A stretch of 39,718 nt of DNA from Escherichia phage ElsieAttenhofer_Bas105 (PQ850601.1), one strand, 5' to 3'. Counted from the stretch's first letter, positions 14,856-16,556 are shown. Notes: generated by a model from the letters alone, not told the origin. Numbers and translations: made by a program.

Positions 14856-16556
14856 ATGTCATACGATGACCAAGACGACGAGAGTGTCTTTCTGTATCAC
14901 ACCCAGTGTCCAGACTGCGGGTCCTCCGATGCGTGTGGTGTCTACTCTGATTCTCATATGTATTGTTTTGCATGTGACCCTTCAGTCGCATGGAAGAAAG
15001 GAGACATGGAGTTTACCGAGGGATACACACCCTCAGGAGGTAGAAAGCAAGTGAGCAATCTGTTAACGTTTGGTGAGAACGCTGGACGATATGTCCCACT
15101 ACCAGCCCGTAGTCTCAGCAGGGAGATCTGCAAGAAGTACAGCTACTGGGTGGGTAACATGGGTGGCAAGATGGTTCAGGTCGCTGATTATTACGACAGG
15201 TCCGGGACCAAGGTAGGGCAGAAAGTCCGAGACGCTGAGAAGAACTTCACGGCTATAGGTAGCGTCAAGTCTGACATGCTGTTCGGCTCTCAGCTCTGGA
15301 ACGGTGGTAAGAAGATAGTCATCACCGAGGGTGAGATAGACGCTCTGTCTGTGGCTCAGGTGCAGGACGGGAAGTATCCTGTGGTCTCGCTTCCGTTAGG
15401 CGCCAAGTCTGCGAAGAAAGCGATGGCAGCTAACCTTGAGTACCTCGACCAGTTCGAAGAGATTATCCTGATGTTCGACATGGACGAACCGGGTCGTCAG
15501 GCCATTGAGGATGCAGCTCCAGTCTTACCAGCAGGTAGGGTCAAGGTAGCGTTCATCAACGGATACAAAGACGCCAACGCTGCACTTCAGGCCAAGGACT
15601 TCAAGGCTATCACCGATGCAATCTGGAACGCTAAACCTTTCGTCCCGGCTGGCGTGGTATCAGCGGCAAGTCTGAAGGACCGCACACGAGGGGCGATGCT
15701 TAAAGCAGAGACTGAAGGCCTCATGTTCTCGTCATGCGCAACACTCAACGCGATGACCTTAGGTGCTCGAGCTGGTGAGCTTATCATGGTGACTTCAGGG
15801 TCAGGCATGGGTAAGTCTACCTTCGTCCGTCAGCTCCTCTTAGAGTGGGGCAGACGCGGTAAGCGTGTGGGTATGGCTATGCTTGAAGAGGCTGTAGAGG
15901 AAACAGTTCAGGACCTTATGGGTCTGGACAATAACGTCCGTCTACGCCAGAGCAAGGAACTGAAGCAAGCCATCTTAGAGGATGGACGGTTCGACGAATG
16001 GTATGACAAGCTGTTCGGAGACGATAAGTTCCACCTGTACGATTCATTCGCAGAGTCGGAGGAAGACACCTTGTTTGCCAAGTTAGCCTACATGGTGGAT
16101 GGTCTAGACTGTGACGTCATACTGCTAGACCACATCTCAATCGTGGTGTCTGGCATGGAAGATAACACGGATGAACGTAAGACCATTGACCGAATCATGA
16201 CTCGTCTCAAGAAGTTTGCGAAGACGAAGGGTGTGGTTGTCGTTGTCATATGTCACCTGAAGAACCCAGAGAAAGGTAAATCTCATGAAGAAGGACGACC
16301 TGTTTCAATCACTGACCTCCGTGGTTCTGGTGCTCTGCGCCAATTATCTGATACTATCATCGCACTTGAGCGTAACCAGCAAGGTGATACTCCTAACATT
16401 GTTCAGCTTCGTCTACTCAAGTGTCGCTTTACAGGTGATACGGGAGTGGCTGGACACCTTGAATACAACAAAACGACAGGGTGGCTTGAACCGATTAGCT
16501 TCACTGGCAGCAGCGGAGAAGAGGATAGTGGCTCGTGGGAAAACCAAGACTTCTAG
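14856..16556 (+). CDS. DNA primase/helicase (T7 gene 4 homolog)
   Basis: 566 aa (same as T7 gp4A); N-terminal Cys4 zinc motif CPDCGSSD...[23 protein letters not shown], Walker [36 protein letters not shown]. Confidence 0.97.

What the first reader, a model, noticed from the sequence alone, without database searches (positions are those of the whole stretch)
14856..16556. Possible internal in-frame start for a helicase-only gp4B form
T7 makes gp4B from an internal start that I recall at Met64. Here an in-frame ATG at 15006 (residue 51) is preceded by AAGGAG, though the 2-nt spacing is short. If used it would give a helicase lacking the zinc-binding primase domain.
Basis: inference. Interest (0 to 1): 0.25.

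Follow-up and report, generated by a model that had tools for sequence, protein, structure and literature searches.

The report
Internal start of phage helicase gene

Summary
The window is a K1F-like phage (Kayfunavirus). ORF 14856-16556 is its T7-type gp4 primase-helicase.

ATG 15006 is codon 51 and is preceded by AAGGAG (14998-15003) with a 2-nt gap.

It is not new. K1F, CLB_P1, CR44b, CR8 and SH4 records already annotate a predicted gp4B from this Met, none with any stated experimental evidence.

It is probably not the main internal start:
- The AAGGAG comes from Lys-Lys-Gly-Asp codons and is lost in relatives (Gly49 is GGC or GGG).
- Its spacing is shorter than that of every well-supported gene start in the phage.
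- Synonymous sites around it vary freely.

The T7 gp4B ribosome-binding site survives 30 nt downstream as AGGAGGT (15035-15041). GGAGG is kept in 82 of 84 distinct gp4 sequences from several genera. An in-frame GTG (15051, Val66) follows at the distance seen in T3. GTG is invariant in all Kayfunavirus sequences examined, and this is the least synonymously variable stretch of the 5' half of the gene.

Best reading (about 0.6): a GTG-initiated gp4B of 501 aa and 55 kDa. The CR44b record already notes this Val as an alternative start. No protein data exist. Interest is low.

The parts
14787..14803 (+). Phage-type promoter directly upstream of gene 4 (AACTATCACCTTAGGGA)
   Evidence: It matches the EcoDS1 promoter annotated in the same place. 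It is one of 7 such sites in the window, against 0.11 expected by chance. None lies at 15000-15100.
14799..14825 (+). Stable hairpin around the expected 5' end of the gene 4 transcript
   Evidence: Folded as RNA: -17.5 kcal/mol, z = -3.4 against shuffles. Its function was not examined.
14843..14849 (+). Shine-Dalgarno sequence TAAGGAG of full-length gp4 (4A), 6 nt before the ATG
   Evidence: Anti-SD duplex energy -8.7 kcal/mol.
14856..16556 (+). gp4A: full-length primase-helicase, 566 aa, 62.4 kDa
   Evidence: ORF. Pfam domains Helic-prim_T7_N, Toprim_2 and DnaB_C. E = 1.6e-84 to the T7 primase fragment 1NUI. 95% DNA identity to Kayfunavirus gp4 genes.
14907..14975 (+). Cys4 zinc ribbon (C18, C21, C37, C40), absent from any internally initiated form
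   Evidence: Translation. These cysteines are invariant against T7 and T3.
14998..15008 (+). It would give 516 aa, 56.8 kDa
   Evidence: Present. SD not conserved. Aligned spacing 1 nt, outside the range of the phage's genes. Annotated as predicted gp4B in K1F, CLB_P1, CR44b, CR8 and SH4.
15035..15041 (+). AGGAGGT, the conserved internal Shine-Dalgarno sequence (codons Ser60-Gly61-Gly62); same alignment column as the T7 gp4B ribosome-binding site
   Evidence: GGAGG is kept in 82 of 84 distinct gp4 sequences from several genera. Gly61 is always GGA, while other conserved Gly columns vary. It is the longest SD match before any internal in-frame start in the window. Duplex energy -11.6 kcal/mol.
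15051..15053 (+). GTG (Val66), the proposed gp4B initiation codon, 10 nt after GGAGG
   Evidence: GTG in 31 of 31 distinct Kayfunavirus sequences, plus the further records that were fetched. Same SD-to-start distance as the T3 4B ATG and the Klebsiella-phage group. The CR44b record notes 'alternative start codon Val at position 16' of its 4B, which is this codon.
15051..16556 (+). Proposed gp4B: 501 aa, 55.2 kDa. It covers part of the ZBD-RPD linker, the RNA-polymerase/TOPRIM domain and the helicase
   Evidence: Inference from the features above. Length and mass. The T7 56-kDa form (1Q57, 503 aa) aligns from window residue 68 onward.
15033..15086 (+). Stretch of suppressed synonymous variation (codons 60-77) that contains the SD, the GTG and the first codons of gp4B
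   Evidence: Mean synonymous diversity is 0.075 against 0.24 for the first 239 codons (permutation p < 5e-5). Codons 60-67 rank 2nd lowest of 232 windows.

Best explanation
Gene 4 of this K1F-like phage encodes the full-length primase-helicase (gp4A, from ATG 14856). It most likely also encodes a gp4B-type protein that starts inside the same reading frame at GTG 15051 (Val66, read as fMet).

Proposed mechanism: 30S subunits are recruited by the internal SD sequence AGGAGGT (15035-15041), which sits in the codons for Ser-Gly-Gly of the flexible linker between the zinc-binding domain (ZBD) and the RNA-polymerase domain (RPD). The 501-aa, 55-kDa product would lack the Cys4 zinc ribbon. By analogy with the T7 56-kDa protein it would form hexamers with helicase activity but without template-directed primer synthesis.

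What is shown:
- the sequence elements themselves;
- their conservation at synonymous positions within Kayfunavirus and across genera;
- that the SD occupies the same alignment column as the T7 gp4B site.

What is inferred: that ribosomes actually initiate there, and the properties of the product.

The ATG at 15006 is at most a minor additional start.
For: 1. DNA and codon alignments place the window's AGGAGGT in the same column as the T7 gp4B SD. They also show an in-frame start 7 or 10 nt after GGAGG in nearly all Studiervirinae sequences sampled. T7 has ATG at 7. T3 and the Klebsiella-phage group have ATG at 10. All Kayfunavirus have GTG at 10, and L079 and L097 have GTG at 7.
2. GGAGG is kept in 82 of 84 distinct sequences. 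The first Gly is always GGA, although GGA is only 11 of 52 Gly codons in this gene and other conserved Gly columns switch codons between clades.
3. The two sequences that lack GGAGG (CR8 = L052, and L101) also lack a start codon there, so the two elements appear to be lost together.
4. In 31 distinct Kayfunavirus sequences, codons 60-67 have the second-lowest synonymous diversity of 232 windows (p = 0.002). Codons 60-77 are the most constrained stretch. Val66 is GTG in 31 of 31.
5. A spacing of 10 nt falls within the 3-10 nt range used by the phage's genes (0.35 and 19.4 at 10; 2.5 and 18 at 9). GTG and TTG starts are annotated for genes 7.3, 4.3, 2.55 and 19.
6. Twelve + strand AGGAGG sites are followed at 4-10 nt by a start that opens at least 50 codons. 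Eleven are annotated gene starts; the twelfth is this site.
7. The anti-SD duplex is -11.6 kcal/mol against -8.7 for gp4A, with the same opening energy as the gp4A site. A rough thermodynamic estimate gives a rate about equal to gp4A (parameters recalled from memory).
8. In T7 the 56-kDa form lacking the ZBD is made in amounts equal to the 63-kDa form (PMC2910064).
9. Under the ungapped alignment to T7 and the published T7 domain limits (ZBD 1-54, linker 55-70, RPD 71-245; PMC2910064), Val66 lies in the linker, as T7 Met64 does.
Against: - No protein, ribosome-profiling or N-terminal data exist for any Kayfunavirus. Every gp4B annotation seen is a prediction.
- The start is GTG and the spacing is at the long end of the range, so initiation could be weak.
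- In the ungapped protein alignment Val66 is one codon downstream of the T7 Met64 column, not in it.
- Gly-Gly could be conserved for protein reasons, although that would not explain the fixed GGA codon.
- The Kayfunavirus sequences fall into roughly two clades, so low local synonymous diversity could reflect a shared recombination tract rather than selection.
- No record seen places the gp4B start at this Val, and the curated EcoDS1 record annotates no 4B. The site appears only as a note in CR44b.
- The ATG 15006 site is predicted to be more accessible (opening energy 5.0 against 7.7 kcal/mol).
Confidence: 0.6

Rival explanations
1. The first reader's reading, which is also the existing database annotation: gp4B starts at ATG 15006 (Met51), using AAGGAG at 14998-15003, and gives a 516-aa, 56.8-kDa protein.
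For: - ATG is a stronger start codon than GTG.
- The AAGGAG duplex energy equals that of the gp4A site (-8.7 kcal/mol), and the site is the most accessible of the three (opening energy 5.0 kcal/mol, 5th percentile locally).
- Met51 is invariant in all Kayfunavirus sequences and in Caroctavirus CR8.
- CR8 lacks the GGAGG/GTG site, so if it makes a 4B this Met is the only visible candidate.
- K1F, CLB_P1, CR44b, CR8 and SH4 annotate this start.
Against: - The SD is a by-product of Lys-Lys-Gly-Asp codons and is not maintained. Gly49 is GGA in 20 and GGC in 11 sequences, and GGG in PRF-SP1 and CR8; Lys48 and Asp50 also vary.
- Its aligned spacing is 1 nt. No gene start with an SD of 5 nt or more has less than 3, and only the doubtful nested ORFs 4.4 and 6.8 have 0-1.
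- In E. coli the peak effect of GGAGG complementarity is at 7 nt from the start (PMC5303271).
- A rough thermodynamic estimate gives about 1% of the gp4A rate.
- Synonymous diversity around it is average, rank 117 of 232.
- Met has a single codon, so its invariance says nothing beyond protein-level conservation of the WKKG(D/T)ME motif.
- Under the T7 domain limits, Met51 falls inside the ZBD (T7 residue 50), not in the linker.
- None of the annotations is backed by stated evidence; SH4 says 'No experimental evidence' and CR8 says 'may lead to'. The K1F record that introduced the start also annotates other speculative 'B' forms (3B, 3.5B).
Confidence: 0.13
2. There is no functional internal initiation and only full-length gp4 is made. 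The conserved GGAGG and GTG reflect protein constraints (Gly-Gly, Val), an inherited remnant of a start that is no longer used, or another role such as an elongation pause.
For: - Two sampled lineages (CR8 and L101) have neither element, so a 4B site is not universal.
- The role of the T7 56-kDa form in vivo is not known (PMC2910064).
- The ATG has been replaced by the weaker GTG, with a long spacer.
- EcoDS1 and most other records annotate a single gene 4.
Against: - Protein constraint does not explain the invariant GGA codon across clades, the invariant GTG among four Val codons, or the dip in synonymous variation.
- An unused remnant would be expected to have drifted at these synonymous sites across the 79-95% nucleotide identity range sampled.
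- Strong AGGAGG sites followed by an ORF-opening start in this genome are otherwise all gene starts.
Confidence: 0.22
3. The internal start is at ATG 14958 (Met35), as annotated for Citrobacter phage SH3.
For: SH3 annotates a second primase/helicase CDS from codon 35. The window has ATG there.
Against: - There is no SD upstream (GATTCTCAT).
- Met35 is not conserved: 23 of 31 sequences have it, and K1F has Gln.
- The product would begin between the two Cys pairs of the zinc ribbon.
Confidence: 0.02

Closest known systems
Bacteriophage T7 gene 4A/4B (63-kDa and 56-kDa gene 4 proteins; 4B from in-frame Met64)
   Same: - Same gene, with 43% amino-acid identity over the first 120 residues.
- Same AGGAGGT in the Ser-Gly-Gly codons of the ZBD-RPD linker.
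- An in-frame start a few codons later.
- A product that lacks the Cys4 zinc ribbon but keeps the RPD/TOPRIM and helicase domains.
   Different: The start codon is GTG rather than ATG. It lies 10 rather than 7 nt after GGAGG, one codon downstream of the Met64 column. The T7 proteins are shown experimentally; here nothing is.
Bacteriophage T3 gene 4 'in-frame internal initiation' (NC_003298, CDS 10856-12370)
   Same: GGAGG is followed by a 10-nt spacer and an in-frame start in the same linker, the same geometry as in the window.
   Different: T3 uses ATG. I did not verify whether the T3 annotation rests on protein data.
Predicted gp4B of Kayfunavirus and Caroctavirus records (K1F AM084414, CLB_P1, CR44b, SH4, CR8)
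   Same: Nearly the same sequence (79-95% nucleotide identity). CR44b also notes the Val (residue 66) as an alternative.
   Different: These are unverified predictions. My comparative analysis favours the Val66 GTG, which none of them uses as the annotated start.

Membership tests
T7-type bifunctional primase-helicase (gp4) | N-terminal Cys4 zinc ribbon (CxxC ... CxxC) | tested here: met
   C18, C21, C37 and C40 are invariant against T7 and T3.
T7-type bifunctional primase-helicase (gp4) | DnaG-type RNA-polymerase domain: T7 N-terminal a+b subdomain plus TOPRIM | tested here: met
   Pfam PF21268 (E = 4.7e-31) and PF13155 (E = 2e-12), both above the curated cut-offs. E = 1.6e-84 to 1NUI.
T7-type bifunctional primase-helicase (gp4) | C-terminal DnaB-like (SF4) helicase domain in the same polypeptide | tested here: met
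   Pfam DnaB_C, E = 5.5e-19, residues 294-511.
T7-type gene 4B (in-frame internal initiation) | In-frame start codon between the fourth zinc-ligand Cys and the RNA-polymerase domain, in the flexible linker | tested here: met
   GTG 15051 (Val66) corresponds to T7 residue 65, inside the T7 linker 55-70. ATG 15006 corresponds to T7 residue 50, which is still inside the ZBD 1-54.
T7-type gene 4B (in-frame internal initiation) | Shine-Dalgarno sequence at a workable distance upstream of the internal start | tested here: met
   For GTG 15051: a 7-nt AGGAGGT, 10 nt from GGAGG to the start, within the 3-10 nt range of the phage's genes. For ATG 15006 the feature is not met: aligned spacing is 1 nt.
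T7-type gene 4B (in-frame internal initiation) | SD and start codon conserved beyond what the protein sequence requires | tested here: met
   For GTG 15051: GGA at Gly61 in all clades, GTG in 31 of 31, and a dip in synonymous diversity. For ATG 15006 the feature is not met: Gly49 is GGA, GGC or GGG.
T7-type gene 4B (in-frame internal initiation) | Two gene 4 polypeptides in infected cells, the shorter one starting at the internal codon | not testable with these tools
   This needs a western blot, N-terminal sequencing or initiation-site profiling. Literature searches found no such data for Kayfunavirus.

The most novel reading that the evidence does not exclude
Kayfunavirus phages make three gp4 isoforms (62.4, 56.8 and 55.2 kDa) from ATG 14856, ATG 15006 and GTG 15051. 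More generally, the Gly-Gly of the ZBD-RPD linker across T7-like phages would be imposed by the need for an internal ribosome-binding site rather than by protein function. Each genus would then tune the 4A:4B ratio through the start codon (ATG or GTG) and the spacer (7 or 10 nt).
Probability: 0.12. Interest if true: 0.3.

Novelty: already known. Interest (0 to 1): 0.12.

Why it matters
The consequences are limited.

If the GTG start is confirmed, the gp4B coordinates in several Kayfunavirus and Caroctavirus records (K1F, CLB_P1, CR44b, SH4) would need correcting by 15 codons.

It would also show that the gp4A/gp4B pair, whose biological purpose is still unknown even in T7, is maintained by selection in most of the Studiervirinae lineages sampled here. 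That argues the short form has a real function.

It does not open a new question or reveal a new mechanism.

Tried and rejected
1. Translational coupling to a +1-frame ORF. The window ORF 14866-15054 (62 aa) ends in a TGA that overlaps the GTG, as T7 gene 4.1 overlaps the 4B ATG. In K1F and most Kayfunavirus that frame is open for only 12 codons, in half of the Klebsiella-phage group for 21, and in L102-107 for 6. It is therefore not conserved, and it has no Pfam match.
2. An internal phage promoter or known RNA element as the reason for the conserved stretch. Seven promoter-like sites were found and none lies at 15000-15100. Rfam gave nothing meaningful.
3. mRNA structure as a discriminator. 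It does not disfavour either site, and ATG 15006 is slightly more accessible.
4. AlphaFold on the single sequence of residues 1-250, to place domain limits. Mean pLDDT was 40, so the model is unusable. I used the published T7 limits instead.
5. A word-indexed protein search to collect more N-termini returned only 3 proteins.
6. The metagenome scan added only 4 Kayfunavirus sequences; the rest are 30-44% identical and too distant.
7. Literature searches for experimental gp4B data in K1F-like phages, or for T7 initiation profiling, found nothing. The K1F genome paper and Chen et al. 1994 are not held.
8. Met35 (the SH3 annotation) was rejected: it has no SD and is not conserved.

Full report
**What the region is.** The window is essentially a whole genome of a K1F-like T7 relative (genus Kayfunavirus). 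Region 14800-16600 is 95-96% identical to Escherichia phages Pipis, Vec13 and K1F, and matches 264 phage records. ORF 14856-16556 (566 aa) has the T7 primase N-terminal fold, TOPRIM and DnaB_C domains. It matches the T7 primase fragment 1NUI at E = 1.6e-84. It is therefore gp4, the bifunctional primase-helicase. A phage promoter lies at 14787-14803, and the gene's own SD sequence TAAGGAG sits 6 nt before the ATG.

**Checking the observation.** ATG 15006-15008 is in frame and is codon 51. AAGGAG occupies 14998-15003, with 2 nt before the ATG. T7 gp4B does start at Met64 (4A at 11565, 4B at 11754).

It is not statistically remarkable. Of 533 internal in-frame ATG/GTG/TTG codons in the window's long + strand ORFs, 26 have an SD-like match of at least 5 nt upstream.

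It is also not new. The K1F record AM084414 and the CLB_P1, CR44b, CR8 and SH4 records all annotate a predicted gp4B from this same Met, none with any stated experimental evidence. SH3 uses Met35. EcoDS1 annotates no 4B.

I aligned the first 300 nt with T7 and T3. The T7 gp4B ribosome-binding site, CAGGAGGT, is conserved base for base in the window at 15034-15041.

| Phage | Sequence after AGGAGG | Start | nt between GGAGG and start |
|---|---|---|---|
| T7 | T AAACCA | ATG | 7 |
| T3 | C AGCAAGCCT | ATG | 10 |
| Window | T AGAAAGCAA | GTG (15051, Val66, in frame) | 10 |

In the ungapped protein alignment the window residue number is the T7 number plus one. Val66 is therefore one codon downstream of the Met64 column. 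The SD column is the same, and the SD-to-start distance equals that of T3.

**Comparative test across genera.** I collected 84 distinct gp4 5' regions: IMG/VR loci L029-L108 plus T7, T3, K1F, CLB_P1 and the window.
- GGAGG is present in 82 of them.
- In every case an in-frame ATG or GTG follows 7 or 10 nt later.
- GTG occurs in all Kayfunavirus sequences and also in L079 and L097.
- The only two sequences without GGAGG (CR8 = L052, and L101) also have no start codon there.
- The first Gly of the pair is always GGA. GGA is only 11 of 52 Gly codons in this gene, and the other conserved Gly columns (residues 22, 73, 77, 104, 117) change codon between clades.
- The surrounding linker is otherwise hypervariable between genera.

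A protein requirement for Gly-Gly cannot explain the fixed GGA codon. A requirement for an SD sequence can.

**Comparative test within Kayfunavirus.** I compared 31 distinct sequences over 239 codons.

| Stretch | Mean synonymous diversity | Rank or p |
|---|---|---|
| All degenerate codons | 0.24 | - |
| Codons 60-67 (SD to start +1) | 0.047 | 2nd lowest of 232 eight-codon windows; permutation p = 0.002 |
| Codons 60-77 | 0.075 | p < 5e-5 |
| Codons 46-52 / window 46-53 (around ATG 15006) | about 0.28 | rank 117 of 232 |

- Val66 is GTG in 31 of 31 and Gly61 is GGA in 31 of 31.
It is GGG in PRF-SP1 and CR8. Lys48 and Asp50 also vary.
- The AAGGAG in front of Met51 is therefore a lineage-specific by-product of Lys-Lys-Gly-Asp codons.

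One caveat applies. The sequences form roughly two clades, so a shared recombination tract could also lower local diversity. The cross-genus result does not depend on this.

**Spacing.** I measured 'aligned spacing' as the number of nt between the base that pairs like the last G of GGAGG and the start codon.
- Annotated K1F/window gene starts with an SD of at least 5 nt range from 3 to 10, with most values between 4 and 7.
- gp4A is 5 and GTG 15051 is 10. Genes 0.35 and 19.4 are also 10, and the essential genes 2.5 and 18 are 9.
- ATG 15006 is 1. Only the doubtful nested ORFs 4.4 and 6.8 have 0-1.
- In E. coli, GGAGG complementarity correlates best with translation efficiency at 7 nt from the start (PMC5303271).
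- GTG and TTG starts are annotated for genes 7.3, 4.3, 2.55 and 19.
- Twelve + strand AGGAGG sites are followed within 4-10 nt by a start that opens at least 50 codons. Eleven are annotated gene starts and the twelfth is the gp4 internal site.

**Energetics.**

| Site | Anti-SD duplex (kcal/mol) | Opening energy (kcal/mol) | Rough rate relative to gp4A |
|---|---|---|---|
| gp4A, ATG 14856 | -8.7 | 7.8 | 1 |
| ATG 15006 | -8.7 | 5.0 | about 0.01 |
| GTG 15051 | -11.6 | 7.7 | about 1 |

Structure slightly favours ATG 15006. The rate column comes from a rough thermodynamic sum whose spacing and start-codon terms I recalled from memory of Salis et al. 2009, so it is only indicative. The near-equal rate for GTG 15051 is in line with the equal amounts of the two T7 proteins (PMC2910064).

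**What the products would be.** T7 domain limits are ZBD 1-54, linker 55-70 and RPD 71-245 (PMC2910064).
- Val66 corresponds to T7 residue 65, in the linker, like Met64.
- Met51 corresponds to T7 residue 50, still inside the ZBD.
- Either product lacks all four zinc ligands but keeps the TOPRIM primase core and the helicase.
- By analogy with the T7 56-kDa protein, it would form hexamers with helicase activity but no template-directed primer synthesis. This is inference.
- Predicted masses are 62.4 kDa (4A), 56.8 kDa (Met51 form) and 55.2 kDa (Val66 form).

**Alternatives examined and dropped.**
- The +1-frame ORF 14866-15054 ends in a TGA that overlaps the GTG, as T7 gene 4.1 overlaps the 4B ATG. 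It is open for only 12 codons in K1F and most relatives, so coupling is rejected.
- No phage promoter and no Rfam family explains the conserved stretch.
- Met35 has no SD and is not conserved.

**Comparison with what is known, and verdict.** The mechanism is the classical T7 gene 4A/4B arrangement. Records for 79-95% identical phages already carry a predicted gp4B. The CR44b record even notes 'alternative start codon Val at position 16' of its 4B, which is Val66.

What this analysis adds is comparative evidence that the Val66 GTG, not Met51, is the start under selection. My probabilities:

| Reading | Probability |
|---|---|
| GTG 15051 is the main internal start | about 0.6 |
| ATG 15006 is the main internal start | about 0.13 |
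| No functional internal start | about 0.22 |
| Met35 | about 0.02 |

No protein-level data exist, so the question is settled only by a gel, N-terminal sequencing or initiation profiling. Novelty: already known. Interest: low.

Noticed in passing
window 14866-15054 (+): A 62-codon ORF in the +1 frame inside gene 4 ends with a TGA that overlaps the GTG at 15051 (GTGA). This is the arrangement of T7 gene 4.1 and the 4B ATG. The frame is open for only 12 codons in K1F and most Kayfunavirus, so it looks fortuitous here (Phe53 is TTT where most relatives have Leu TTG). It has no Pfam match.
   Followed up: yes
window 14787-14825 (+): A phage promoter (AACTATCACCTTAGGGA) is followed directly by an 11-bp hairpin (-17.5 kcal/mol, z = -3.4), which would sit at the 5' end of the gene 4 transcript. 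It could act as an mRNA stabiliser or an RNase III-type site. This promoter has CCTT where the other six sites have CTAT.
   Followed up: partly
window 16835-17236 (+): A 133-aa HNH_3 homing-endonuclease ORF (Pfam E = 7e-17) lies between the gene 4.x ORFs and the DNA polymerase gene (17227-19395), and its end overlaps the polymerase start. K1F has no such gene there. K1F's polymerase CDS is instead annotated as joined from two pieces with an ORF (5.3) inside, whereas the window's polymerase ORF is uninterrupted. CLB_P1 has a gene resembling 13a gp7.7 at this place.
   Followed up: partly
L158, L164, L166 (about 470-480), L189, L144: Several very distant metagenomic primase-helicases (30-44% identity) also have Gly-Gly followed by an in-frame GTG in the linker after the zinc ribbon, with AAGGAGG or GGAGG 4-10 nt upstream. 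Many others have a Met 15-25 residues after the fourth Cys. Internal initiation in this linker may be much more widespread than the enterobacterial T7 group. With the strict SD criterion only 5 of 75 loci scored.
   Followed up: partly
L052 = L192 (Citrobacter phage CR8, Caroctavirus), codons 46-66: CR8 keeps the WKKGTME motif with the Met but has lost both the GGAGG and the downstream start codon. L101 has lost these and has no Met either. The gp4B site is therefore dispensable or relocated in some lineages.
   Followed up: partly
window 16285-16599 (+): An ORF resembling gene 4.2 (104 aa, Pfam DUF5480, E = 2e-11) is nested out of frame in the 3' end of gene 4, as annotated in K1F, T7 and T3.
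   Followed up: partly
window, whole: The window is circularly permuted relative to the K1F record: gene 18 starts at 192, gene 19 at 1604, gene 1 at 6369 and gene 4 at 14856, against 10936 for gene 4 in K1F. Several K1F early genes (0.1, 0.2, 0.36-0.38, 1.1-1.3) could not be mapped by near-exact context, so the early region differs.
   Followed up: no
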